Positions 5,590 through 57,451 of a DNA stretch of 64,000 nt are shown here, in pieces. This DNA comes from Azolla caroliniana (Eukaryota > Plantae > Polypodiophyta). Location of the stretch: assembly GCA_043228905.1 (NCBI GenBank), contig JBHGNT010000013.1:13268001-13332000 (forward strand), given 5' to 3'. A model generated the notes under the pieces. It did no database searches. It was not told the DNA's origin and was given only the letters and a program-made list of their open reading frames with translations. The first letter of the stretch is position 1. The number at the start of each line of letters is the position of its first letter. The translations under genes and the position numbers were made by a program.

Positions 5590-6170
5590 CTATCTACTAC
5601 TTACATATCATATTATATGTTGATGACCTTCTAATTACAGGGTCCCTTGCTTCTAAAATCAAGGAGCTCTGCACTGACCACAAAACCACATTTGAAGTGA
5701 CTGATTTAGGACTTCTCCATTACTTCTTAGGCCTGGAGGTCTAGGTCTATCAATCACATGGTGGTATCTTCCTCAGCCAACAGAAGTAGCTTAGATAGCT
5801 CCTTGAGACATGGCGTGTCAAATTGCAGGCCACTCTTATGTCCATGGATCCAAACTCAAAGCTATCGTGTGAACATGATTCTCCCATATTTGAAGATATC
5901 ACAAAACATAGAAGGTTAATTAGTCTCTTCTTCACTTAACTTATACTTGGCTTGATTTGTCCTAAAGTGTAAGTATTCTTAGCTAATTCATTGGCAAGCA
6001 GCTATTCGTGTTCTTAGGTATTTGGCCAACACTCTCGAATATGGTCTCTTTTAGGGCGGAATTGAGCTTGTTGGCTTCTCATACGCTGATTGGGCAGGTG
6101 ATATTGATTCTAGAAGGTTCACATCTGGATATTGTTGTTTTAGGCTCAGGTTTAATTTATTGGAAATCAA
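5590..6170 (+). mobile_element. Second Ty1/copia RT to RNase H fragment
   Basis: LYVDDLLITG..MTDLGLLHYFLGLEV-like and ADWAGDIDSRRFTSGY..LGSGLIYWKSK motifs. Confidence 0.85.
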
Positions 6171-7532
6171 ATTGATGGTAATGGTGGGTGACAATCAAGA
6201 CACACTTCTAACAGATTCCCAGCGGAAAGGTATGTTTTTGTGAATTCTCATACACTGATTGGGCAGGTGATATTGATTCTAGAAGGTTCACATCTGGATA
6301 TTGTTGTGTTAGGCTCAGGTTTAATTTATTGGAAATCAAATTGATGGTAATGGTGGGTGACAATCAAGACACACTTCTAACAGATTCCCAGCGGAAAGGT
6401 ATGTTTTTGTGAATTCTCATACACTGATTGGGCAGGTGATATTGATTCTAGAAGGTTCACATCTGGATATTGTTGTGTTAGGCTCAGGTTTAATTTATTG
6501 GAAATCAAATTGATGGTAATGGTGGGTGATAATCAGATTCCCAGCGGAAAGGTATGTTTTTGTGAATTCTCATACACTGATTGGGCAGGTGATATTGATT
6601 CTAGAAGGTTCACATCTGGATATTGTTGTTTTAGGCTCAGGTTTAATTTATTGGAAATCAAATTGATGGTAATGGTGGGTGACAATCAAGACACACTTCT
6701 AACAGATTCCCAGCGGAAAGGTATGTTTTTGTGAATTCTCATACACTGATTGGGCAGGTGATATTGATTCTAGAAGGTTCACATCTGGATATTGTTGTGT
6801 TAGGCTCAGGTTTAATTTATTGGAAATCAAATTGATGGTAATGGTGGGTGATAATCAGATTCCCAGCGGAAAGGTATGTTTTTGTGAATTCTCATACACT
6901 GATTGGGCAGGTGATATTGATTCTAGAAGGTTCACATCTGGATATTGTTGTGTTAGGCTCAGGTTTAATTTATTGGAAATCAAATTGATGGTAATGGTGG
7001 GTGATAATCAGATTCCCAGCGGAAAGGTATGTTTTTGTGAATTCTCATACACTGATTGGGCAGGTGATATTGATTCTAGAAGGTTCACATCTGGATATTG
7101 TTGTTTTAGGCTCAGGTTTAATTTATTGGAAATCAAATTGATGGTAATGGTGGGTGACAATCAAGACACACTTCTAACAGATTCCCAGCGGAAAGGTATG
7201 TTTTTGTGAATTCTCATACACTGATTGGGCAGGTGATATTGATTCTAGAAGGTTCACATCTGGATATTGTTGTGTTAGGCTCAGGTTTAATTTATTGGAA
7301 ATCAAATTGATGGTAATGGTGGGTGATAATCAGATTCCCAGCGGAAAGGTATGTTTTTGTGAATTCTCATACACTGATTGGGCAGGTGATATTGATTCTA
7401 GAAGGTTCACATCTGGATATTGTTGTGTTAGGCTCAGGTTTAATTTATTGGAAATCAAATTGATGGTAATGGTGGGTGATAATCAAGACACACTTCTAAC
7501 AGATTCCCAGTGGAAAGGTATGTTTTTGTGAA
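6076..7532 (+). repeat. Tandem array of 9 units (5 x 169 bp, 4 x 153 bp), chimeric Copia RNase H / WD40 exon-intron monomer
   Basis: Units start at 6076, 6245, 6414, 6567, 6736, 6889, 7042, 7211, 7364; near-identical apart from a 16-bp indel and a few SNPs. Confidence 0.97.
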
Positions 7533-7746
7533 TAAAAATTGTACTTCAACCACACTGGAGTAAATATGATACTTGAAGTTGCATTACTAAAATCTTGCTG
7601 GAATGTTTAGGTCTTGGCAACGCTGAAAGGTCATCTAGACTACTCTTTTGGCTCAGCATGGCATCCTGATCAGAATCAAGACACTTCCTGCAGACTCTGG
7701 GATGTGAGGAATTTGAGCTCTTCACTTGCAGTTCTAAATGGTAGCC
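7457..7746 (+). pseudogene. Fragment of a WD40-repeat protein gene (C2A9.03/DUF2415-like): two partial exons and one intron
   Basis: KLMVMVGDNQDTLLTDSQ(S)GK, GT-AG intron 7518-7610, then VLATLKGHLDYSFGSAWHPD--NQDTSCRLWDVRNLSSSLAVL; frameshift and internal deletion. Confidence 0.8.
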
Positions 7747-26625: not shown

Positions 26626-28870
26626 TGTTATGTACACATAACGTTAGTGAGGGTAGGTCACTAATATTTACATTAGTGAAGGGTATGTTTACTAATGTTA
26701 AAAAGACGGCTAATTTGAATGGATAGAAGGAATGACAGGTGCATGCACTATCATGATTTGGGCAACCAATGAATGATTTAGACCCTTTTCCTTTTAGAAA
26801 GGCACATCTATTCAAGGGGCCTAGGAAAAGGTATAAATATGAGGCTTAGCTAACCTCATAAGCACATTACGTCGGAAGGTTGTTGTCTTAGACACCGGTG
26901 GTGCGGGCGAGGCTTTCATCTCGACGATCGTGTTTATCTCTTCCAAGGTATTAGTCATCCGGATATCCGGCGGTATGGGACGTCAGTGGTAGGTTGGTTA
27001 TGTCTAGATTGTAGCTCAGGGGTGATTGGGTGAAATGGGTTCTTCTATCCAATCTATTTTCCGTCTTTTACTTTACTTTGGTCTATTGATTAGTAATAGA
27101 CTCTTAATAATGGTATCAGAACCAAGTTTTGATCCTGGGACCTGTGGATTATGGGCCCACCACGCTTCTACTGCGCGACAATGACAGCTCGAGGGACATT
27201 ACGTCGACAATCCAATGACACTCTTGACCGTGACTCCAAGAAACTGGACCTCTTCTGTGCATATTGCAAGAAGCGGGGCCGCACAAAGGATACTTATCAT
27301 CGTCTTGAGAGGAAGTCAATGAACACCCCTCCTCAAGACAAATCTACGAGTCACACAGGTGAGTCTTTTGATGTTGTTGAGGTTCATACCAATCACTTAA
27401 GTTCATGTGAATGCACTTTTCCTTCACATTTACTTGGACCTAATGATTTACTCCGAGCAGTCAGGTATATCAATGGAACACAAGCACCTTTCTTGTTTGA
27501 TTCCGGTAGTTCTCACAATTTTCTTAATGGTCACTTTGTGCAGCAAATGGAACTCCACATAAACGCAAGTGATCATATCTATTAAGTTCACATGGCAAAT
27601 GGAAGTGTTCAATACATCAATGGCATTGTTTGTCAACTGCCAATTCAAATAGATGCCTATTTGGTGAAGCTAGACTTTCATGTTATGAAACTACAATCCG
27701 TAGATGTCATTTTAGGATACCCTTGGTTTTTTAATAAAAACCCTTCTTTGTTCATTGATTGGGTTAATCACTCAATCACATTTGAACTTAATAATTGTAA
27801 ACATTTTATTCAATGTTCCAAACTTCCTTCTCGTTCACTTGTGTCTTCTAAATCTTTAAGTTAGTATTCTAGTTCATTAATTTATTTGTGTAATTGATCC
27901 TGCGCTTCAATTTTATTATTTTAATATTGATGCCACACAATTACCACATTATGAACAACGATTACTCAACCCTATTTTAGACGATTTTTAAGATGTGTTT
28001 CCTAATGAATTGCCGCTTACTTTACCACCAAGATTTTTAGACAACAGTCATGCCAAGATTTGAACTCTTGACAATTTGTATTGTAGTCAAGTGTTATGTT
28101 CTAACCAATACACCCAAGTACATGATCATGTTATGTATATGTCCGTAGATTATTAGTAGAATATCCATTTCAAGTTCTAGTAGTTTGTAGAAAGTTCTAG
28201 AACTAGAAGGTTCTAGAGGAATCTAGAATATTCTAATGCATGTACTTCGACTCATAGTATAAATACTTGTAACCTCCGTGGTCCCTTTCAAGGGAATCAA
28301 GGCAAGTCATTGACACATCAATATAGTGTTCTCATTTCGCCTCATCTTTGTCTTCTTGATCTTTAGTTCTATCTTCATGCCCTCATGTCGCTCACAACAT
28401 CTAGAATTCCTAGCTTCGTCACGCTCCAAGTTCATCCGTCGCTTGTAACCCCATCATCCGTGCTTCGTCATAGTCCGCGCTTGGTTATCATCAGATTGAC
28501 TTACGAACAGGTTATCATTAGATTCGCATTGCCAAGGATGATATTCCTAAAACCATTATGAGTTTTTAGTCATGCCTTTCGGATTGACTAATGCTCCAGC
28601 CACATTCCAACAAGGGATGAATGACGTTTTCCGAGATTAACTCAGTGATTTTGTTGTCGTCATCTTGGATGATAGTTTGGATATATAGTTGTACCTTGCA
28701 AGATCATGTTCAACATGTTCGATTTGGTTTGGACAAGTTGCGTGACAACCCTTTCTATGCAAAACATTCAAAATGTGATTTTTTCCAAAAATCTATTGTG
28801 TACTTAGGTCATTTAATTACGGAAAATGGTATTGAAATTGAACCTTCTCGTATTGAAACGTTGTTTTTTT
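26626..28870 (+). mobile_element. Degenerate Ty3/gypsy element (LTR 26626-27109, iMet PBS at 27111, gag/PR/RT remnants)
   Basis: TGTTA...TAATA then TGGTATCAGA; CAYCKKRG knuckle, FLFDSGSSHNF, VILGYPW, IDLRTGYH, MPFGLTNAPATFQ. Confidence 0.85.
28092..28490 (+). mobile_element. Probable solo LTR nested in the gypsy remnant
   Basis: TG...CA ends, TATAAATA at about 28258, repeated TTCTAG motifs; flanks TCAAG/TCAGA are an imperfect TSD. Confidence 0.65.
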
Positions 28871-46138: not shown

Positions 46139-49100
46139 TTTTTTTTTTAATTTTTTTTTCCCAAAAAAAACACTACTCCCCATTAGTTAGCAAAAGAATT
46201 ACATCGAAGAACAGCCATAATCAAAACAGCATAATCCTCACCTAACTATTTACAACAAGAGTAACCCACTGCCTCTTTTTACATAGAGACCACCATGGTG
46301 ACCACATATTCACAACGAAGCCAATGGCGGAAACAGCCATCTTGGTGCTTGGTAATTCCATTTAGGACCAGACGCTGAATTAACCATCATAGGAGAGCGA
46401 CCCCATTTCAGCAAAAACTTTGAGCGAGCCCTGTCTGCTGCATCCGAGTTCCCTTCAATTGAGTTGTACTGTCCACGCAGCCAAGATACCAGCTCAAACC
46501 AAATGTTTAGCAACACCTCACCGCTTGGGAGTTTTCGTTGCTGAAAAACAAACATACATCGTCTGGTCCAAATGTGCCAGACCGAGAAGCATGCCACCAA
46601 CATCCATATCTCCTCAAAAAAACCAGAGTTTGTACCAGGTTCTACTCCAACACTTTTGAATACACTGCCGCCCTGCAATATAAAACCATGACCATGTGGA
46701 TTTAATTGTTCCGCCCAACCTTCCTTAGTTAGTTTCAAACCCTGTAAGGACCCCCACACAACTCTCCCATTCACCCCGCATGCTGCCACTATCCTGAGAC
46801 TTCGACCCCAAATGCTGATTGCCTCTACACAATTCCAAAAACAGTGAGGTATCGATTCCAAAGAGTGACCACATAACAGGCAACCAGCCTCCCCACCACG
46901 AGACCTCATCCACTCCCCTACCGGTAACGCCTTATGACTAAGAAGCCAAAACCACACCTTGATTTTTTCTGGCATATCAGATGCCCATAGTCTCCGCCAA
47001 AACGACTTCAACAAGTCATCTGATATGCCTTTATCCCTCCAACTATTGCAAGTTTGAGCAGCACCCACTGATTTGGAGCCAATGATTTGCCTTCCGAGCT
47101 TAGTACTATAATCAAAAAACCCCACCAGTTTGTTCGTTCCCGGTTTTTGCCACCATACCTCTAGTGGATCCCACTCCAAATCATGTAGAGGCTTGTTGTC
47201 CAATAGCCATAGTTTACAATCATTATCTAGCTTCCCTGGGTCTGGGTTTAATTGCCACTTCTTACCTTCCAACACTGCCACCCGCACTGCCAACCACTGA
47301 CCATTGTCGGACAAAGCACTTAGGTTTCCCCACAAACGATATTCATTAGATGGACACTTGCCACGGATAATTTGTCCATCACTCTCACCTACAAACCACC
47401 CAGACCAGACCCCCTCTTCCTTATCCAACCTATCTAGACCATCAACAGCCTTATTTATCAGTTGGGTCACCTTCTCAAGCCTACAAGAAATGCTACCAAA
47501 CTGACCCTCCCTCCTCTTCATTTTGAAAACATCCCACTCTCTTACTGAACTAACATTGTACCCTAACATGCGGCCCCATGGCAAATATTTTTTCTGTCCA
47601 AGCATCATGCCGTCCTCATTTCTAATCCTAGGGTTCCAAAATAACGGTTGTCGGAGTTGTTCCTCCAATGTTTTCGGTTGCATTAAGACCAACCCATCTC
47701 TTACACTTGACCAAGCCATCATTATGGCACGGGCCACCCTGTCCTCCATGCTATTTGGTTGTTTCAGCTTTAAATCTGGACTGAACAACCACCACATCTT
47801 TGCCTTCCAAGGGCCGCCATTCCTTGGACACCAAAGGTCAGCTCTATCCCTAAGAAGCAACTTCCACAGTTCAGGACCAGGTTGTAAACTTCGCACAAGT
47901 AGCTTACCTAGTAAAGCTTTACTTCGGTGAACTGGATCCACCAACCCAAGTCCACCTTGGTTTTTCGCCTTGATCAAACAACTCCACGCCACTTTAGCTG
48001 ATGCCCTCTCATGGTCTCTACCCGACCATAGGAACCCTCTCACCATTGCCTTAATATTTTTGATGCAAGTTTTGTCTAACACCCAACATGCCACCGAGTG
48101 CCACATGGTGGCTAACAAAATGTGGTTTACCACGACCACCCTACCTGCAAGAGAGAGCTTTACTGATGCCCACACCCGAAGCTTTTTTCTGATTTTGTCT
48201 TTCACTTGCTCAAGTTGCTGATTTTTGGGTGTCTCAACGCCCACCAAAAAACCCAAATATTTAATAGCCATTCCATTGGGGACCCATTGAAAATCAGCAT
48301 TAGGGCACCAAAGAGGCCATGGGTTTGAACTTACCCAAAATCCCTTGCTTTTGTTCCAATTGATTTTCCCTCCTGATGCTCTACAAAACAACTCAATTCG
48401 ACTTTCAGCAAGCTGTAAATTATCGTCATTGCCTTGTAGATAGAGCATAGTGTCATCTGCGTATGATGAGTCCAACAACTCCTTGCCCGCTTGTGGGACA
48501 ACTAACCCCCTTATTCCTGCATCTGGTTTGTTTAAAAAGAAAGAGAATGCCTCTGCAATAAATAAATAAAGGTAGGGGGCCAACGGGCACCCTTGCCTGA
48601 CAGACTTGCATAATGGAATTCGTGGGCCCCGATGCCCTGACACCATCACCCTACTCAAACTTCCTTCGTAAAGGGCTAACGCAGCCGATCTCCATTTGGA
48701 GGGTAGTCCCAACCTCTCCATCACTTTATCTAAGAAAGGCCATTGTACTCTGTCATACGCCTTCTCGAAGTCAAGCATGAGACATGCAATATGTTGATTG
48801 GTTTTCTTTGCCAAGGCAATCGCCTCCCAAAAGGTCAACACATTATCAATTATGCATCTGTTTGCCATGAATCCTGTTTGTCCAACATTAATTAGTGCAT
48901 TCAAGTGGGGTTTGACCCCCTTGGCCAATATATTGGCAAAAATCTTATATATTGTGTTGAGCAATGTAATCGGTCTCCATTGCCTTGCATCAGCTATTAG
49001 GCCTTGTACCTTTGGAATTAGAAATATCAGCCCCTCTTTAAAATGCTCAGGTAAACGGCCAAGAGCCCATGCCTCATTAAGACCATCAACCAAGTCAACC

Positions 49101-49592
49101 TTAATCACTTCCCAAAAGTTTTCAAAAAAATCTCTTGATAATCCGTCGATGCCTGGACAAGACGTTCTACATATACCCGCCAAAGCATCTGACACCTCCT
49201 CTTCCAAGATTGGCCTTGACAAATGAACTTGTGCAACCTCTGAAATTCTTTGTTGCATACCCTCCAATACAAATTCTGTTAGATTAGGCTGTTCGGGGAT
49301 AATAGAACTGTATGAGAGTAACCCACGATAGTGAGTTGTGATTGCCTCCATGATCTCTGACACATCCTCCGATGCTGATCCATCCTCCTTAATCAGCTTA
49401 GGATTGCAACTACAGTTTGATCTCGGCTTTTTATACTTAAAAAATTGATGATTTACCTTATCCCCATTCTTGCTCCACCATGCCGCGGAACTCCTGAATA
49501 ACATCGTGTTTCTAGACGTAATCAACCGTTGTAACGTTTCTCTAGCAGCCTCAAGACCGGCTCTAGACCATTGACACGTGGGATCTTTCTGA
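46139..49592 (-). mobile_element. 5'-truncated L1-clade LINE with poly(A) tail
   Basis: Poly(A) at 46139-46159; uninterrupted ORF2 remnant; candidate TSD AGCATT (46135-46140 and 49593-49598). Confidence 0.93.
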
Positions 49593-49597
49593 AGCAT
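46310..49597 (-). CDS. LINE ORF2 lacking endonuclease (RT plus zf-RVT), 1095 aa open frame
   Basis: CPGIDG, WRPITLLN, DFEKAYDRV, SVRQGCPLAP, YADD, KYLG; C-terminal CLLC..ESIPHCFWNC. Confidence 0.9.
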   Translation of the reverse strand: MLQKDPTCQWSRAGLEAARETLQRLITSRNTMLFRSSAAWWSKNGDKVNHQFFKYKKPRSNCSCNPKLIKEDGSASEDVSEIMEAITTHYRGLLSYSSIIPEQPNLTEFVLEGMQQRISEVAQVHLSRPILEEEVSDALAGICRTSCPGIDGLSRDFFENFWEVIKVDLVDGLNEAWALGRLPEHFKEGLIFLIPKVQGLIADARQWRPITLLNTIYKIFANILAKGVKPHLNALINVGQTGFMANRCIIDNVLTFWEAIALAKKTNQHIACLMLDFEKAYDRVQWPFLDKVMERLGLPSKWRSAALALYEGSLSRVMVSGHRGPRIPLCKSVRQGCPLAPYLYLFIAEAFSFFLNKPDAGIRGLVVPQAGKELLDSSYADDTMLYLQGNDDNLQLAESRIELFCRASGGKINWNKSKGFWVSSNPWPLWCPNADFQWVPNGMAIKYLGFLVGVETPKNQQLEQVKDKIRKKLRVWASVKLSLAGRVVVVNHILLATMWHSVACWVLDKTCIKNIKAMVRGFLWSGRDHERASAKVAWSCLIKAKNQGGLGLVDPVHRSKALLGKLLVRSLQPGPELWKLLLRDRADLWCPRNGGPWKAKMWWLFSPDLKLKQPNSMEDRVARAIMMAWSSVRDGLVLMQPKTLEEQLRQPLFWNPRIRNEDGMMLGQKKYLPWGRMLGYNVSSVREWDVFKMKRREGQFGSISCRLEKVTQLINKAVDGLDRLDKEEGVWSGWFVGESDGQIIRGKCPSNEYRLWGNLSALSDNGQWLAVRVAVLEGKKWQLNPDPGKLDNDCKLWLLDNKPLHDLEWDPLEVWWQKPGTNKLVGFFDYSTKLGRQIIGSKSVGAAQTCNSWRDKGISDDLLKSFWRRLWASDMPEKIKVWFWLLSHKALPVGEWMRSRGGEAGCLLCGHSLESIPHCFWNCVEAISIWGRSLRIVAACGVNGRVVWGSLQGLKLTKEGWAEQLNPHGHGFILQGGSVFKSVGVEPGTNSGFFEEIWMLVACFSVWHIWTRRCMFVFQQRKLPSGEVLLNIWFELVSWLRGQYNSIEGNSDAADRARSKFLLKWGRSPMMVNSASGPKWNYQAPRWLFPPLASL

Positions 49598-50651
49598 TCC
49601 TCAAACCAAAATTTGGTGGTTAATGAGAGTTTCAATCGTATAAGTAACACATAAGATGAACAACTCGATGACAATTTTTAAGCCAATAGAGGAACAAAGA
49701 TAATTTCCTTAAAGTGTGGTTGGGGCATGGCCATTTTTGTGGTATAATATATGATAAACTATACAAAATCATGTTATTTTAAGACTTGGGTTGCAAAAGT
49801 CGATAACAAAATCCATTAACAATGTGTCTTTCAAGGGTTCAATATCATTGACTCTCACTTTTTCATGGAGGACGCTCCCTTGAATTTTAATTAAAATTTG
49901 GTAGAAGAAGATACACATGAACTAAGGGCATTAACTTCTTTCATGCAACTGATCATAACATTAGTAATAGTGTTCATTGAATCAATTTTATGAATTTTTT
50001 TGAATCTTTGAAAATTGTATGAATGGTCTTGGAATACTCTTGTCGAGCATATTATCATCATTGTCAAACATTTGTGTGTTTTATTATCTAGTTCTACCAT
50101 TATGCCCAGTAGTAGAGCTACTAACTCTTTTGTACAATCGAAGGCACAAGCCTCTCCAAAACAATGAAGACTGAAAGCATGAATATTTTTATTTATGAAA
50201 AGATACTTCTAATTGAAACTTTAGAATGACTATTGTAACAAAAATTATAATGCTAAATAATAATGTATATATACATTGACATCAACACAAATAGTAGAGT
50301 TGAAGTTCAAAGCTTAATTGACAACGTTGACAATGAAAATTCCCTCATCAAGTGTGGTTCATGATGCATGTGGCTAATTTTTGTCTCTAGAGTTGGTTTT
50401 TTCCACTCATCAATAGATTGTTGTGGATATGTTCATTAAGATGACACAATGACTATCAATAGTTAAGATGCCATCACGGGCTTCCCAATGGCATTGTCCA
50501 TAATCAAGGTCCACAATTTGTCAGGAACTCTATTAAGGCAGAGAAGGAATTAGTACTAAAAGAAGGATTAGTACTATTGTTGGGGAATAGTACTAAGACA
50601 GAGAAGGATTAGTACTATGAGAGGTGTCGAACTTTGAGAGAAGGAATGAGT

Positions 50652-50697
<46 letters not shown>

Positions 50698-50979
50698 TGA
50701 TGCGAAAGATATATGTATTATATGACGGAAGATATACAACAGTAGTTAGAAGGCTTAAGACTTGCGTTGAACCGATTTGGTTCGAACTAATGCCTTGCGC
50801 CTCCTTTTATAGTGTCTTCAGGAATACTCCTGAAGTTTCTAGAATGTTCCAGAGAAATCTGGAATATACATCAATTTCCTAATAAAACCTAAATGAAAAT
50901 AATATCCTTCAAATTACAACTCATAACCTAATGGTAAAGTCTCGACCCGTGTAACAAAAGGTTATGGGTTCGAGTCTAG

Positions 50980-53900
50980 TTATGACACTATCCCCCCTTT
51001 AAAACGACGAGTTTCACGAGTCGTTTTGGATTGAGGACCCGGTTTCTCGGGATATCGTCGATGGAAGTCTTCTAGAAGAGCACGAGCATTGGTCACATTC
51101 TCGATCGGTTCCCAAGTACGCTCGCTGGGACTATATCCTAGCCAATCGACTAGATAGTAGAGCTTGTTGCGAACAATCTTGGAATCGAGGATGGCAGCGA
51201 CCTCATACTCAGGTCCATCTTCGAGCTCGATAGGAGGTGGAGGTTGTATAGTACGTCCTGGGATAGTGCTCTCGTGATAGGGTTCGAGGAGAGAACTATG
51301 AAACACCGGGTGTATCCGAAGTTGCGGAGGTAGCTCGAGACGAAAAGCGACATCATTAATCTTCCCGATAATACGGAAAGGACCTAATCGTCGATAATCC
51401 AACTTCTCACATGGGCGAGTAGTCTTGATGTGTCGTCGTAGCAGCCACACCCGATCTCCAATGTTAAAACTGGATGGAAGTCGATGACGATCTGCGTAGT
51501 CCTTGTGTGATTGTTGAGCTTGCTGGAGTTGAGTAGATAAATCCGCTTGTATCTTGCGTAACCGCTCCAAACGATCCTCCGCGTAAGGATTTGTGGACAC
51601 TTCTGGGGTTTCAAGGACACACCACCGGGGATGATATCCCGTATAAGCGTAGAATGGCGTTACTTTAGTCGATGCGTGGATAGCGTTATTATAGGCAAAT
51701 TCGGCGAACGGAAGAATATCTGCCCAGTCATTCTGATGATAGTTGAGAAAGCACCGCAGATACTGCTCCAGTGTTTGATTTGTTCGTTCGGCTTGACCGT
51801 CGGTTTGTGGGTGGTAGCCGGAGGAGAGGTTACAAGTGACCTTCAGCATTTTAAAAAGGTGCTTCCAAAATTTTGACACAAACTGGGGTCCACGATCGCT
51901 GATGATATTATCAGGGAGTCCATGATGCCGACATACTTCCCGCATGACAATTTCGGCGGTGTCTTCACTAGATATTTCTTTAGTACATGGTAAGAAATGA
52001 GCCATCTTCGTATATCGATCCACCACTGTGAGAATCGCACTGAATCCCTTAGAGACTGGAAGATCTGTAATGAAGTCAAGAGCAATGGATTGCCATGGCT
52101 TGCTTGGAATTGGTAATGGTTCTAATAAACCATATGGATGATGTCTTGGCATTTTCGCTCTGCAGCATGTATCGCAAGTCCGAACAAAATCTTCGACAAA
52201 TTGTCGCATACGGGGCCACCAGAATGATCGTTGTACTAAATCTAATGTTTTAGTACTACCAAAATGTCCTGCTGTATATGTGTCATGGCAGTTTTGTACT
52301 ACTCGAAGGCGGCAAGAACCATTAGGAACATACAAAAGTTCTTTAAAGAAGAGTAATCCATCACAGTATTTGAATTGCCGATAATCCGTACCTGGTGATT
52401 GTGATTGTGAACATGACGCTCGAGAGGGGTCAATTTGTGCTAGTATAGCTTGGGCGAAAGCGTCAGTCTTCAAGTCCTCACATATAGTATTGGTAATGTC
52501 GGAATCCACGGGCATGTCAAAGATCTGTGCTGCTTGCAGTCGTGCTGGACCCAAGATTACTTGCTTCTGGTTATCGAAAGCTGGCTCACTGGGATGTGGT
52601 GTTAGATACGAACGCCGTGATAATGCATCTGCCTTCCCTTGGTGCTTCCCCGGACGATATGTAATTTTGAAGTCGAAGCGTGTGAGGAAATGGGCCCACC
52701 GAGCTTGACGTCGATTCAGTACACGAGCATCTTGAAAGTAGGCAAGGTTCTTGTGGTCACTGAATACAGTGACCTGATGAGGAGATCCCTCCAGGAAATG
52801 CCTCCATTGCATAAAAGAATCAACTATTGCTAATAGCTCTTTATCATGAATTTCGTAGTTGATTTCGGCGGCGTCAAACTTACGGGAGTGGAAAGCCACA
52901 GGATGTAGCTTCTCGTCGTTACCCTGTTGTGACAGAATGCTCCCCAATGCGAAATCCGATGCATCAGCTTCGATAATGAATGGTTTTTCCGGATCCACAT
53001 GACCTAAAATTGGAGCTGATGTAAACGCCTTCTTAAGACTCTCGAAAGCCATGTCCGTCTCTTTAGACCAAATGAATGATTGTCCCTTCCTGGTGAGCTG
53101 TGTGAGAGGCAGCACAATTTTTGAGTAATTTTGTATGAACTTCCGGTAGAAATTTGCAAAGCCTAGGAAGCATTGCACATCCCGCACCGAACGCGGAGTG
53201 TGCCATTCTATCACCGTTTTGACCTTGGCTGGGTCCATAGATATGCCTTCTGAGGAGATGACATAGCCGAGAAACTCCACTTGGTTGCACCCGAAACTAC
53301 ATTTCTCTAACTTTGCATACAGACCATGTTCTCGAAGTCGTTTTAGTACTAATAGTACATGAGAATCATGTTCTTCTTGGGTCTTTGAATAAACCAGTAG
53401 ATCATCCAAATAGATGATCAAAAAATCATCCAAGAGGTCTCGAAATATATCATTCGCCATGTGCTGGAAGACTGCCGGCGCATTAGTGAGTCCGAACGGC
53501 ATGACCGTATACTCGAAGTGCCCATATCTGGTGCGAAACGCGGTCTTCCATTCATCTCCTGGTCGGATCCGTACGAGGTTATAGGCTCCTCGTAAGTCGA
53601 TCTTCGTGAAGAACCTGGCACCGTTGATCCGTTCTAAAAGACTTGAGATAAGGGGAAGAGCATACCTATTTCTTACTGTGACCTTATTTAAGCCACGGTA
53701 ATCTACAACGAGTCGAAGCGAGCCATCTTTTTTCTTGACGAAGAAAATGGGTGCGCCGGCTGGAGATTTCGAATGCCGAATGAAACCGTTCTCCAAATTC
53801 TCCTCTATATAGGCTCGAAGGACTTCTAGCTCGGTTGGTGACAAATTGTAGATCGGCCCCCATGGCGGCTCTTTTCCCGGTTGTAAGTCGATGGCGCAGT

Positions 53901-54576
53901 CGTACGGCCGATGATGAGGAAGTGTGTTGGCTTGTACTTTATCGAACACATCAGCATACTGACGATACTTCTCGGGAAGTTGAACGGTGGACTCCTCTTT
54001 GGTGGTGCTGGAGGGTTGTACTGATATTGCAAAGAGAAACATTTCCTCCTTGCGCCCTTCCTCACGCAACTGACGTAGCGAAATGGTTGCAACCTTCTGG
54101 GTAGATCCTTGGGTTTGTCGCAACCGGATTTCCCTTGTCCTCCAATCTATGTCTGGGTCATGTAACTCGAACCATGGTAATCCTAAAACTATGGGATGTT
54201 CTGGAATACTAATAATATTAAATGATACTACACATGTTAAGTTATCTAGGACAATATTAACGGGTTCCGACTCTTCTATGATATTACCAGAAGCAATGGG
54301 ACGACCATCAATGACTACTACTGAGGCTGGACATGGGAGCTTTCTTAGAGATATCTGATGAGCTCGGGCAAAATTCCTATCCATGAAGCAAGAATTAGCT
54401 CCGGAATCTAGAAGGGCTAAGGTATGTACTGGAGGGGTACTTTTAGTACTAACTGCTACTTGGACTACGAACACATCACTAACTTGCTTAGAGGGAATGG
54501 AACCACTAATGGGCTGCACAGATCTAGGGCTGTCCAACCAAACGGCTCCTATTTTGGCTGGACTTAGTCGTTTAAC
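50980..54576 (-). CDS. pol: Pol (PR-RT-RNase H-IN-chromodomain), predicted to be expressed by -1 frameshift from gag
   Basis: LLDSGA, YLDD, EADASD, HHCC, GPF/Y, EYEVAAILD..YLVDWLGY..TWEP; stop codon lies inside the 3' LTR. Confidence 0.95.
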   Translation of the reverse strand, partial: VKRLSPAKIGAVWLDSPRSVQPISGSIPSKQVSDVFVVQVAVSTKSTPPVHTLALLDSGANSCFMDRNFARAHQISLRKLPCPASVVVIDGRPIASGNIIEESEPVNIVLDNLTCVVSFNIISIPEHPIVLGLPWFELHDPDIDWRTREIRLRQTQGSTQKVATISLRQLREEGRKEEMFLFAISVQPSSTTKEESTVQLPEKYRQYADVFDKVQANTLPHHRPYDCAIDLQPGKEPPWGPIYNLSPTELEVLRAYIEENLENGFIRHSKSPAGAPIFFVKKKDGSLRLVVDYRGLNKVTVRNRYALPLISSLLERINGARFFTKIDLRGAYNLVRIRPGDEWKTAFRTRYGHFEYTVMPFGLTNAPAVFQHMANDIFRDLLDDFLIIYLDDLLVYSKTQEEHDSHVLLVLKRLREHGLYAKLEKCSFGCNQVEFLGYVISSEGISMDPAKVKTVIEWHTPRSVRDVQCFLGFANFYRKFIQNYSKIVLPLTQLTRKGQSFIWSKETDMAFESLKKAFTSAPILGHVDPEKPFIIEADASDFALGSILSQQGNDEKLHPVAFHSRKFDAAEINYEIHDKELLAIVDSFMQWRHFLEGSPHQVTVFSDHKNLAYFQDARVLNRRQARWAHFLTRFDFKITYRPGKHQGKADALSRRSYLTPHPSEPAFDNQKQVILGPARLQAAQIFDMPVDSDITNTICEDLKTDAFAQAILAQIDPSRASCSQSQSPGTDYRQFKYCDGLLFFKELLYVPNGSCRLRVVQNCHDTYTAGHFGSTKTLDLVQRSFWWPRMRQFVEDFVRTCDTCCRAKMPRHHPYGLLEPLPIPSKPWQSIALDFITDLPVSKGFSAILTVVDRYTKMAHFLPCTKEISSEDTAEIVMREVCRHHGLPDNIISDRGPQFVSKFWKHLFKMLKVTCNLSSGYHPQTDGQAERTNQTLEQYLRCFLNYHQNDWADILPFAEFAYNNAIHASTKVTPFYAYTGYHPRWCVLETPEVSTNPYAEDRLERLRKIQADLSTQLQQAQQSHKDYADRHRLPSSFNIGDRVWLLRRHIKTTRPCEKLDYRRLGPFRIIGKINDVAFRLELPPQLRIHPVFHSSLLEPYHESTIPGRTIQPPPPIELEDGPEYEVAAILDSKIVRNKLYYLVDWLGYSPSERTWEPIENVTNARALLEDFHRRYPEKPGPQSKTTRETRRFKGGIVS
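54525..54576 (-). other. Programmed -1 ribosomal frameshift signal
   Basis: G_UUA_AAC, 6-nt spacer, 11-bp stem GUCCAGCCAAA/UUUGGUUGGAC; loop can pair with downstream GCCCUA. Confidence 0.8.
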
Positions 54577-55733
54577 TCTTCTTCTAATTGGCTAAGGACA
54601 TCAAATTTGTTTGCGAGATTCGGACTATTAGTACTATTAGGACTATTATGACTATGAGGATTATCAGAGATTCCTACTGACATAGACTCGGGTTTAGTAT
54701 AGTCAGAACTAACAATGACTTGGTTTACCTGCCTTCTTGGTCTATGGGGACAGTTTATCGCGATATGCCCTGGTCCACCGCAATAAAGGCATAATCGGTT
54801 TGTTCGGCGTCGTTGCTTTTCCTCCTCCGATAGCGGCCCACGACGACGTGTAGTGTCAATTTCCATTGGAGTTGGAGTACTTACTGGAGGCGCATTATGT
54901 GACTCCCTTTGAAAAGGTTTCGCTACCATTGAGGCATAGGTAGGCTCGGATCTTGCCCTCGGCATCTGAAATTGTCGTTCCGAACGTCGCTCGAAGAGGC
55001 GGTTGTCACATCTGACCGCTCGACTGATTGCTTCTGTTAATGATTTTGGCTCTTCAGGGAAAGTCAAGAGTAAATCCTTGACATCGTTGCGTAGACCATA
55101 GCGGAACTGCTCCATCAATGCTTGATCATCCCAGGGGATATCGGCGGCGAGTAGGCGGAAATCTGCAGCATATGCGGAGGCTGGACGGTCACCTTGGCGT
55201 AATCGCCGGATTTTGTTGATTGCAGTCCTTATGCTGTCAGTATCTCCAAAACATGCTTTAAACTCACTTATGAATTCTTCAAAATTATTTAGTACTGGAG
55301 ATTCCTTTTCTAGTAGCGGTGCGAACCATGCTAATGCTGAGCCAGTTAACAACGTGCCTACTAAACCCACTCGTGATGCATCGGTGGGATATCGGGACGG
55401 ATGCATTTGAATAACTAACCGTACCTGGTTAAGAAACCCTCTAAACTGCGATCGCGTTCCATCGAACTTCGTGGGAAGGCCAATCTTGGGTTCTTTATGA
55501 ATCCCTTGTGCTCCGTGCCCTTGTTGTTGCATTGCTACGATGGTTGCTTCGAGTTGTTGCACGCGTAACGCAAGTTCCCCATGCTGTTGTTGCGTTTGCT
55601 GCTTTTCTAAGGAAATTTGCTGAAGATCCCCCAACAAGCGTTGATTTTCTTGTTCCAAAGCATGAAACTTCTCTTTCAAGCATTGAAATTCCGAGAAAAC
55701 GGATTGATACTCTTCAGCGCTAACGGTGGCCAT
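54564..55733 (-). CDS. gag: Gag (PEG10/RTL-like capsid, CCHC knuckle), 389 aa
   Basis: N-terminal coiled coil; LPTKFDGTRSQFRGF..LTGSALAW; PMEID; CLYCGGPGHIAINC. Confidence 0.95.
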   Translation of the reverse strand: MATVSAEEYQSVFSEFQCLKEKFHALEQENQRLLGDLQQISLEKQQTQQQHGELALRVQQLEATIVAMQQQGHGAQGIHKEPKIGLPTKFDGTRSQFRGFLNQVRLVIQMHPSRYPTDASRVGLVGTLLTGSALAWFAPLLEKESPVLNNFEEFISEFKACFGDTDSIRTAINKIRRLRQGDRPASAYAADFRLLAADIPWDDQALMEQFRYGLRNDVKDLLLTFPEEPKSLTEAISRAVRCDNRLFERRSERQFQMPRARSEPTYASMVAKPFQRESHNAPPVSTPTPMEIDTTRRRGPLSEEEKQRRRTNRLCLYCGGPGHIAINCPHRPRRQVNQVIVSSDYTKPESMSVGISDNPHSHNSPNSTNSPNLANKFDVLSQLEEELND

Positions 55734-55811
55734 GGGATGAAGGAAAAGGGAAATAAGAGACTAGTAGGAAAGGAGAGAGACAGAAGGAAGAGGGAGACTA
55801 GTAGGGGGGAA

Positions 55812-55823
55812 AAATCGGTTCAA
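55812..55823 (-). other. Self-priming primer-binding site
   Basis: TTGAACCGATTT (minus strand) is the exact complement of LTR 56081-56070, which starts 33 nt after the TATA box. Confidence 0.85.
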
Positions 55824-55958
55824 ACTGTCAGGAACTCTATTAAGGCAGAGAAGGAATTAGTACTAAAAGAAGGATTAGTACTATTGTTGGGGAATAGTAC
55901 TAAGACAGAGAAGGATTAGTACTATGAGAGGTGTCGAACTTTGAGAGAAGGAATGAGT

Positions 55959-56000
<42 letters not shown>

Positions 56001-56226
56001 TGATGCGAAAGATATATGTATTATATGACGGAAGATATACAACAGTAGTTAGAAGGCTTAAGACTGGCGTTGAACCGATTTGGTTCGAACTAATGCCTTG
56101 CGCCTCCTTTTATAGTGTCTTCAGGAATACTCCTGAAGTTTCTAGAATGTTCCAGAGAAATCTGGAATATACATCAATTTCCTAATAAAACCTAAATGAA
56201 AATAATATCCTTCAAATTACAACTCA

Positions 56227-56280
56227 TAACCTAATGGTAAAGTCTCGACCCGTGTAACAAAAGGTTATGGGTTCGAGTCT
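56227..56280 (+). promoter_or_regulatory. tRNA-like A-box/B-box module at the LTR U3 edge (second copy at 50924-50977)
   Basis: TAACCTAATGG ... GGTTCGAGTCT with tRNA-like spacing. Confidence 0.6.
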
Positions 56281-57451
56281 AGTTATGACACAATTCATTG
56301 GATTGATTATAAACTCTCTCTCTTGAGCTATCATCTATATAATGAATGTATCAATCAAATATTGGTGCAGTTTCTTCATTGTTTCATCAACTACTAACAA
56401 GATGATTGGGTTTACTATTTGCACTTTGTAGATTTTGCTTACAACAATATGATTCACTCTTCTACTATATATACTCCATTCTTTGTCAACATAGGATCTA
56501 ATCCCATTGCATGATGCTTGAACATTTTGAATTCTCGAAAAATCTCATTGTTGAGGATTGTCTACTTTAACTCCAAGAGATTCACATTATTCTTTCTTAC
56601 CATTTAGATGATGCTCAAGCCAAATTTACGAAATTTGTAGATTTTCATCATATTGACTCATCACCATACGAACCTAAGTTATTGACTTGGGGATTGCATG
56701 TGGCTCTTACGAAGTACTATAAAGACAACCATGCCTTGCCATAACTTTGATTGTGAATGTCTTGGTCCACACATAAAGGAGTATTTCCTTGAATCCCCTC
56801 CACTTGGGAGGATTTCATCGAGTCATTATTATGAGCCATGATCTCTTACTAGACAAATGAAGTTGCATTTCGTTTTCAATCTCCCTCACCACACTTGTAT
56901 TCACCTAGTGTTATGTGTAACACTTTTGGAGCTTTATACTTCAAGTTTTATTCTGGATTATGTTGTTCCTCCACCTCTTGTTGAGCCTATTGATGGTATA
57001 GAATACTAGTTAGAAACCATTTTGGACTCCACATTTGTGCACAACAAATTATATTATTTGGTTAATTAGTTAGGATATACACCTAATGACTGAACATGGA
57101 AGTTTGCCAAACATCCCAATGATGTCACACAACTCGTAGGTGGAATTTCATCATTGATATCTAAATAAGACAATTGGTAATTTATGCATTCCGACTCATG
57201 TAACTTGTCATGAAAATAGAGTAGGGTAAAGATTTGAAGTCATGACCTCTTGGAAGATTATATGTAGCCTTAACCATAAGGAGATACCATATAGTTATTC
57301 TATAATCTAGAGAATATACATAATATTATGAAATGTCGCTACATTGCACATGCTAATGTATGATCGCCGAATGCCAAGTGGTGATCATGCATGACTTCAA
57401 GGTGACAAGCATATGCACATGTGTAAACCATGCTATATAAGCATGTGTTAT

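What the first reader, a model, noticed from the sequence alone, without database searches (positions are those of the whole stretch)
56227..57284. Conserved antisense tRNA-like Pol III module at the outer edge of chromovirus LTRs
Seen: both young LTRs start with the reverse complement of a tRNA-like unit, with A-box TAACCTAATGG and B-box GGTTCGAGTCT (10/11 to consensus each) and 44 nt from T8 to G53. The old relative has the homologous unit at 57284-57230 (CCTTATGGTTAAGGC...GGTCATGACTTCAAATCT); the two boxes are the best-kept parts while the spacer has diverged. Similar relics occur at 28046 and 29129. Known: Cassandra elements carry 5S promoters in their LTRs, and TFIIIC-bound B-boxes can act as chromatin barriers. 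Inference: a self-priming, chromodomain-bearing element that carries its own tDNA mimic, either as an insulator against the heterochromatin it targets or as an outward/antisense Pol III promoter. I know of no description of this but cannot verify novelty.
Basis: partly seen in the sequence, partly recalled or inferred. Interest (0 to 1): 0.82.

Follow-up and report, generated by a model that had tools for sequence, protein, structure and literature searches.

The report
Retrotransposon carries backward tRNA promoter
A young, intact plant jumping gene carries in each end repeat a backward-facing, worn-down copy of a tRNA gene that has kept its promoter boxes, shared by some but not all related families, and it likely serves as a docking site for the host's tRNA-gene machinery that would help keep the element's own promoter open, though it may be only a relic.

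Summary
An intact, self-priming-type Tcn1 chromovirus (50519-56290, minus strand, LTRs one substitution apart) starts both LTRs with an antisense tRNA-like unit. These two sites are the only A+B box pairs at ≤2+2 mismatches in 64 kb and the top hits of an independent tRNA profile; 0 of 500 shuffles score as high. The boxes and spacing are kept, the cloverleaf is lost. The unit occurs in 2 of 4 protein-selected plant-like relatives, on separate branches (one clade rejected, p-AU 0.027), and close relatives in four coded organisms. It is absent from a sister family and from the fungal-like relatives checked, so it is optional. Corrections: it lies at the outer edge only in the 5' LTR; across families only the B box beats the spacer (72% vs 56%); the old copy's boxes are broken. 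Best reading (0.45): a TFIIIC docking site beside a heat-shock-element-like array and TATA box; nothing functional is shown. Closest known: Helenus/Cassandra TRIMs (Helenus seen: sense, non-autonomous) and foamy-virus LTR Pol III cassettes. The scan's notes hold related but different cases. New variant of a known kind.

The parts
50519..56290 (-). Intact young Ty3/gypsy chromovirus (Tcn1/Tf1 type), TG...CA ends, 5-bp target duplication CAATT at 50514-50518 and 56291-56295
   Evidence: LTRs 469/465 nt, 464 of 465 aligned letters identical plus a 4-nt (GA)2 gap
55826..56290 (-). 5' LTR
50519..50987 (-). 3' LTR
56220..56290 (+). tRNA-like unit, antisense to the element, 5' LTR copy (tRNA positions about 1-71; its 3' end coincides with the LTR terminus)
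56227..56237 (+). A box (10/11)
56262..56266 (+). tRNA variable-loop-like AGGTY, similar in 5 of 6 units
   Evidence: read from the listed units
56270..56280 (+). B box (10/11; core GTTCGAGTC perfect)
50917..50987 (+). tRNA-like unit, 3' LTR copy (A box 50924-50934, B box 50967-50977); points into the PPT and the end of pol; first T4 at 51024 (predicted 107-nt RNA)
56183..56215 (+). AT-rich stretch about -37 to -8 of the unit, with a CAA at -7 (plant tDNA-like upstream context; this CAA varies in relatives)
56120..56152 (.). 7-unit alternating GAA/TTC array, heat-shock-element-like (label recalled); copy at 50817-50849; the only arrays with 4 or more perfect units in the window
56108..56114 (-). 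TATA box of the element's Pol II promoter (predicted)
56070..56081 (-). Predicted self-primer, 12 nt complementary to the PBS, about 32 nt past the TATA start
55812..55825 (-). Primer-binding site complementary to the element's own LTR
54564..55760 (-). gag frame (stop to stop), Retrotrans_gag/Ty3_capsid
50980..54591 (-). pol frame PR-RT-RH-IN-SH3-chromodomain; its stop lies in LTR nt 6-8, so the B box is outside the coding frame
50988..51000 (-). Polypurine tract
56344..57102 (+). Decayed integrase-chromodomain of an older relative into which the young copy inserted (left piece at 50472-50516)
57230..57284 (-). Decayed homologous unit in the older relative's LTR (LTR starts 57206); both boxes broken
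28046..28122 (-). Unit of a second family at the start of an LTR (probably solo) lying among gypsy RT remnants; matches L002
29129..29200 (-). Unit-like relic, LTR context unresolved

Best explanation
Both LTRs of this intact chromovirus begin with an antisense, tRNA-derived A+B box unit that has lost its cloverleaf, and the unit likely acts at the DNA level as a TFIIIC docking site that would help keep the adjacent heat-shock-like/TATA promoter open in repeat-rich chromatin. Shown: the tRNA likeness, position, orientation, loss of acceptor and anticodon pairing, presence in several families, absence from others, and nested insertion into an older copy. Inferred: capture of a tRNA copy or SINE head at the U3 5' end; copying to both LTRs by normal reverse transcription; gain, loss or exchange of the U3 block between families; purifying selection on the B box and the A-B spacing; TFIIIC binding; a barrier or nucleosome-clearing effect on the 5' LTR promoter about 70-110 nt inward. 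Any Pol III RNA (about 107 nt from the 3' LTR, variable from the 5' LTR) would be a by-product. About 0.9 that the unit is tRNA-derived, 0.6 that the boxes have been under selection inside the LTR, 0.45 for this role.
For: Unique A+B pair in 64 kb; top tRNA-profile hit, 0 of 500 shuffles, and likewise 0 of 500 for L026, L002 and 28046. By hand on the sequence, 20 of 22 box letters fit while only 3 of 12 acceptor and anticodon pairs form. Six units keep the A-to-B spacer at 32-38 nt while the B box lies 10-28 nt from the LTR end. Pairwise identity over 15 pairs: B 119/165, A 93/165, spacer 297/528, upstream 318/600. The protein-selected pair young vs L002 (59% integrase identity) shares 8 of 9 B-core letters against 16/33 spacer letters. 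In contigs of four coded organisms, 0 of 11 B-box positions carry a listed variant against 21 of 76 non-box positions (Fisher p 0.038), and the 7 A-box change types seen in more than one run all stay inside TRGYNNARYGG (p 0.001; p 0.014 with two changes seen in X18 alone). The unit sits just outside a 7-unit GAA/TTC array and TATA. The copy inserted into an older element's integrase. TFIIIC-only (ETC) sites and tDNA insulator activity are described in PMC11346459 (passages).
Against: Optional: absent from L001 (sister of L002) and L023, and by eye from the SM-Tcn1 LTR. The A box is no better kept than the spacer across families; L002 and 28046 have 2-3 A-box mismatches. The one search count is biased: contigs of a subfamily are clipped at 50973-50977, one X18 contig hides a C61 change in its loose end, L026 itself has C56 changed, and 50890-50909 is equally free of listed variants (19 of 88 11-nt windows have none). 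Three of six units were motif-picked. A captured SINE head would already show boxes kept and stems lost. TFIIIC is reported to be excluded by CpG methylation (PMC11346459) and the B core holds a CpG. The barrier evidence in the passages read is not from plants. The CAA at -7 is not conserved.
Confidence: 0.45

Rival explanations
1. Neutral relic: a tRNA retrocopy or SINE head landed antisense at the U3 edge once or twice, was copied to both LTRs by reverse transcription and spread by U3 recombination. The boxes look kept because the donor already had that pattern.
For: Missing from the sister family L001; broken in the old copy; A box not above background across families; variant-free stretches also lie outside the boxes; module-bearing rows are not one clade (p-AU 0.027), which fits recent exchange, so integrase distance need not date the unit.
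Against: A-box changes inside the family cluster stay within the consensus (p 0.001-0.014) and the B box shows no listed variant (p 0.01-0.04, biased). Two rather different units sit at the same place and orientation on separate branches.
Confidence: 0.3
2. Antisense Pol III gene: the 3' LTR copy would make a ~107-nt RNA that covers the PPT and the pol 3' end and limits the element's own copy number, or feeds small-RNA pathways.
For: No T4 inside the unit; first T4 at 51024, right behind an 8-bp hairpin; whole RNA folds at z -2.2; unit hairpin z -2.7 in the young copy and L026; AT-rich upstream stretch without listed variants at 50890-50909; Pol III cassettes with A/B boxes work in foamy-virus LTRs (PMC3993851, passages).
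Against: No shared fold across families (L002 z +0.7, old copy +0.5); the 5' LTR copy would run into unrelated flank; the CAA at -7 is variable; terminator position was checked only in this copy.
Confidence: 0.15
3. The sequence is kept for a replication reason unrelated to Pol III: a hairpin in the genomic RNA just 3' of the PPT, or part of the integrase attachment end.
For: A hairpin of about 13 bp pairs the B box with 50941-50949 in the young family (element-sense z -2.4); the B box starts 11 nt from the LTR end.
Against: The distance of the B box from the LTR end varies from 10 to 28 nt while the A-B spacing stays 32-38 nt; element-sense folding is unremarkable in four of the six units and weak in L026 (z -1.2); L001 lacks the unit.
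Confidence: 0.08
4. Chance resemblance to a tRNA.
For: ARAGORN and Rfam give no tRNA hit.
Against: the same anatomy in independent loci L026 and L002.
Confidence: 0.02

Closest known systems
Helenus TRIMs / TRIMp3 (Kojima 2024, PMC10886601; parts 1-4 of 6 of the text read, plus passages and one supplement search)
   Same: tRNA-derived sequence in both LTRs, boxes kept, tRNA function lost; one plant family (Selaginella). The paper also says that 'not a few LTRs' in Repbase contain part of a tRNA, and analysed only TRIMs under 1 kb.
   Different: Helenus is non-autonomous (311-1263 bp); in the LTRs seen the tRNA part is in the sense direction, and it is proposed to drive the element's own transcript. 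Here the element is autonomous, 5.8 kb, keeps a TATA promoter, and the unit is antisense at the U3 5' end, so it cannot make the genomic RNA.
Cassandra and Ajax TRIMs (5S-derived Pol III promoter; as described in PMC10886601; the Cassandra paper itself not read)
   Same: Small-RNA-gene promoter captured in an LTR.
   Different: 5S (type 1) promoter that starts the element's own RNA (shown for Cassandra), non-autonomous.
Tcn1 clade of chromoviruses (Novikova 2010, PMC2864245, passages and supplement S3; Neumann 2019, PMC6317226, passages)
   Same: About 5.7 kb, LTRs of about 450 nt, 5-bp TSD, PR-RT-RH-IN-chromodomain, self-priming layout.
   Different: Neither paper's passages mention a tRNA-like LTR unit; the SM-Tcn1 LTR start shows none by eye.
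Foamy-virus LTR Pol III miRNA cassettes (Kincaid 2014, PMC3993851, passages)
   Same: Autonomous retroelement with A/B-box Pol III units inside the LTR next to a Pol II promoter.
   Different: They make Dicer-processed hairpins with their own terminators; here there is no terminator inside the LTR and no conserved hairpin.
tDNA insulators and ETC (TFIIIC-only) sites (PMC11346459, passages)
   Same: B-box-centred DNA element proposed to organise chromatin.
   Different: Host loci, not mobile; nothing tested here shows binding.

Membership tests
Tcn1/Tf1-type chromovirus | Ty3/gypsy pol order with C-terminal chromodomain | tested here: met
   RVT_1, RT_RNaseH, Integrase_H2C2, rve, SH3_Tf2-1, Chromo (E 2e-14)
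Tcn1/Tf1-type chromovirus | Self-priming PBS complementary to own LTR | tested here: met
   12 contiguous bases, about 32 nt past the TATA start; the same pattern by eye in L001
Tcn1/Tf1-type chromovirus | Aromatic cage in the chromodomain | tested here: met
   translation shows Y, W and Y at the cage positions (positions recalled); PMC6317226 gives the cage for 95% of Tcn1
Tcn1/Tf1-type chromovirus | Groups with reference Tcn1 elements in an RT-RH-IN tree | not tested
   REXdb reference files were too large to read; trees hold no named Tcn1 element
Helenus (TRIMp3) | tRNA-derived sequence with A and B boxes in both LTRs | tested here: met
Helenus (TRIMp3) | Non-autonomous TRIM without coding capacity | tested here: not met
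   5.8 kb with open gag and pol frames
Helenus (TRIMp3) | Pol III promoter oriented to transcribe the element | tested here: not met
   unit is antisense to gag-pol; Helenus LTRs shown are sense
Functional tRNA gene | Cloverleaf with acceptor and anticodon stems | tested here: not met
Type-2 Pol III promoter / TFIIIC site | A box and B box at tRNA spacing | tested here: met
Type-2 Pol III promoter / TFIIIC site | Plant upstream TATA and CAA signals | tested here: inconclusive
   AT-rich stretch present and CAA at -7 in this copy, but the CAA varies in relatives
Type-2 Pol III promoter / TFIIIC site | TFIIIC/Pol III occupancy or transcript | not testable with these tools
   only contigs were served
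tRNA-derived SINE insertion | Body, tail and own target duplication behind the tRNA head | tested here: not met
   only 10 nt follow the B box before the LTR ends; no free-standing copy at up to 2+2 mismatches in the window; a truncated head is not excluded

The most novel reading that the evidence does not exclude
Plant Tcn1 chromoviruses that insert into repeat-rich chromatin carry a portable U3 cassette, a captured tDNA mimic plus a heat-shock-element array, gained more than once or swapped between families, which recruits TFIIIC to wall off their own promoter from silencing: a self-insulating retrotransposon and a first handle on tDNA barriers in plants.
Probability: 0.3. Interest if true: 0.8.

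Novelty: new variant of a known kind. Interest (0 to 1): 0.52.

Why it matters
Chromodomain elements are thought to insert into silent chromatin (recalled) yet must be transcribed there; a built-in TFIIIC site would be a simple answer and a new anti-silencing route for plant transposons. Natural with/without pairs (L002 and L001) and broken copies make it testable. Even as a relic it extends tRNA-bearing LTRs from tiny TRIMs to autonomous elements and in the opposite orientation, and such units could add to tRNA pseudogene counts in repeat-rich plant genomes.

Tried and rejected
No whole genome was held, so no genome-wide copy alignment. ARAGORN and Rfam: no tRNA hit. Pattern scans of viral contigs: 120 stretches, none with a pol hit; a stricter pattern gave 0. 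Protein-led scans of viral and prokaryote collections gave mostly fungal-like elements or contigs that end before the 3' LTR. No RNA holder listed; X17 and X18 are only guessed RNA and are contigs, so they say nothing on expression or strand. The profile hit at 27180-27134 (E 0.34) lies just behind a TGGTATCA-type PBS of another element and was dropped as chance. The AP2 search did not place the host firmly; 'fern' rests on an unchecked scan note. A conserved RNA fold across families was looked for and not found. A single origin without loss or exchange is rejected only weakly (quick tree; careful tree unfinished). Literature: ten searches; the two aimed most closely at this arrangement returned 0 papers and the listings of the others showed no description of it. 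The library lacks most subscription journals and Repbase Reports, and supplements S1, S2, S4-S6 of PMC2864245 and files 1 and 3 of PMC6317226 could not be read and may bear on Tcn1 LTR features.

Full report
The element. The finding lies in the 5' LTR of an intact Ty3/gypsy element at 50519-56290 on the minus strand, flanked by the duplication CAATT. Its LTRs (469 and 465 nt) differ by one substitution and two GA repeats. It has open gag and pol frames with RT, RNase H, integrase, SH3 and chromodomain, a PPT at 50988-51000, and a PBS whose 12 bases pair with the element's own LTR about 32 nt past the TATA start. This layout fits the Tcn1 clade as described in PMC6317226 and PMC2864245 (passages); no tree with named Tcn1 references could be made. 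The copy sits inside the integrase gene of an older relative. The host is a land plant; an unchecked scan note calls it a fern and my AP2 search did not settle it.

The observation. The A box (56227-56237) and B box (56270-56280) are each one mismatch from the recalled consensus, with 44 nt from T8 to G53. With up to two mismatches per box, the two LTR copies are the only pairs on either strand of 64 kb. ARAGORN and Rfam do not call them. A sequence profile from 62 tRNAs found in fetched loci ranks them first (E 0.006), and 0 of 500 shuffles score as high. By hand on the sequence, 20 of 22 box letters fit, the D and T stems are partly paired, and only 3 of 12 acceptor and anticodon pairs form. 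The unit's 3' end coincides with the LTR's first base. It is antisense to gag-pol: it points outward from the 5' LTR but inward, into the PPT, from the 3' LTR.

Distribution. Loci were fetched by integrase or pol similarity, not by motif (135 distinct loci). 77 of 135 gave an LTR start with at least 90 nt, most called automatically and some probably wrongly. 3 of 77 have an antisense B core within 45 nt: L026 (79% integrase identity), L002 (59%) and L049 (no other support). Of the four loci that branch with the window (SH-aLRT 96), L026 and L002 have the unit and L001 and L023 do not; holding the three carriers together is rejected at p-AU 0.027 on a quick tree (the careful 52-row tree did not finish). 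L001 shares the TATA and self-primer region with L002 (p 0.003) but lacks the unit. The SM-Tcn1 LTR shows none by eye. Contigs from runs of five coded organisms cover the unit, four of them in the close-up call. Inside the window, 28046 matches L002 over 206 nt; 57230-57284 and 29129 align to the young or L026 unit but not in the rest of U3. The unit is therefore an optional U3 block that was lost, gained twice, or exchanged.

Is it selected? Over 15 pairs of six units the B box is 72% identical (119/165), the A box 56% (93/165), the spacer 56% (297/528) and the upstream 40 nt 53% (318/600); three of the six were picked by motif. For the unbiased pair young vs L002 the B core matches at 8 of 9 letters and the spacer at 16 of 33. 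The spacer stays 32-38 nt while the distance to the LTR end varies from 10 to 28 nt, which argues against an integrase-end constraint. Among close relatives in four runs, 0 of 11 B-box positions carry a listed variant against 21 of 76 non-box positions (p 0.038; 21 of 56 and p 0.010 from 50910 on). The seven A-box change types seen in more than one run all stay within TRGYNNARYGG (p 0.001), or p 0.014 with two exceptions seen only in X18. Against this: contigs are clipped near the B box 3' end, one hides a C61 change, L026 has C56 changed, 50890-50909 is equally free of variants, and changes are not independent events. The old copy has both boxes broken and no profile hit. Folding gives a hairpin in the young family and L026 (z -2.7) and a different one at 28046, none in L002, 29129 or the old copy, so no RNA fold is shared. 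The evidence for selection is real but modest.

How it most likely works. The unit cannot make the genomic RNA because it faces the wrong way, and the element has its own predicted Pol II promoter: a 7-unit GAA/TTC array and TATA 70-110 nt inward. With boxes and spacing kept and no common RNA, the simplest selected role is at the DNA level: TFIIIC, with or without TFIIIB, bound at the LTR edge and keeping the U3 promoter accessible. TFIIIC-only sites and tDNA insulators are described in PMC11346459, which also reports that CpG methylation excludes TFIIIC (passages). Binding, barrier activity and transcription are all untested. The relic reading stays close behind (0.3), since a captured SINE head would arrive with the same pattern. 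An antisense Pol III RNA of about 107 nt over the PPT (first T4 at 51024) is the third option. On origin, a tRNA retrocopy, a truncated SINE head and an accident of plus-strand synthesis that copied a tRNA from its 3' end all fit; none was tested.

What is known. Kojima 2024 (parts 1-4 of 6, passages and a supplement search) describes tRNA-derived parts in the LTRs of non-autonomous Helenus TRIMs, sense in the LTRs I saw, and notes in one line that not a few Repbase LTRs contain part of a tRNA. Foamy viruses carry working A/B-box Pol III units in their LTRs (PMC3993851, passages). PMC13570524 cites only Cassandra and Helenus/Ajax for such captures (passages). Ten literature searches, two of them aimed at this arrangement and empty, gave no description of an antisense tRNA-like unit at the U3 end of an autonomous chromovirus. 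The scan's own notes had no look-alike sequence and related but different cases. It works like a Helenus-type captured promoter in make-up but is not a Helenus.

Verdict. A real feature, a new variant of a known kind, with modest evidence for selection and no functional data. Interest 0.52.

Noticed in passing
window 56120-56152 and 50817-50849; L002 4270-4292: Long alternating GAA/TTC array (heat-shock-element-like, label recalled) just upstream of the TATA box; the only such arrays in the window. Suggests a heat-inducible element.
   Followed up: partly
L001 1851-2010 and L002 4134-4450: Sister families share the TATA and self-primer region, but only L002 has the tRNA-like unit and GAA/TTC array, behind a second internal TGTCATG: U3 looks mosaic.
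   Followed up: partly
window 51001-51027: 8-bp inverted repeat directly upstream of the PPT (element sense), inside the pol frame.
   Followed up: no
window 50472-50516 and 56291-57102: The young copy inserted into the integrase gene of an older relative on the opposite strand.
   Followed up: yes
L012 4146-4230: A fungal-like chromovirus LTR has an A+B box pair in the sense direction (0 and 2 mismatches); it was not among the tRNA-profile hits.
   Followed up: no
PMC2864245 supplement S3: By eye, the SM-Tcn1 sequence behind the 5' LTR looks complementary to its own LTR, although the paper reports no sign of self-priming.
   Followed up: no
window 46310-49600: Open 1096-aa frame with RT and zf-RVT domains, LINE-like.
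   Followed up: no
window 6043-7630: Tandem array of 153/169-nt units, several at 100% identity.
   Followed up: no
PMC13578239 (passage): A review lists a fern genome with more than 7500 predicted tRNA genes, put down to repeats; LTR-borne tRNA-like units would be one thing to check there. No link to this window was established.
   Followed up: no
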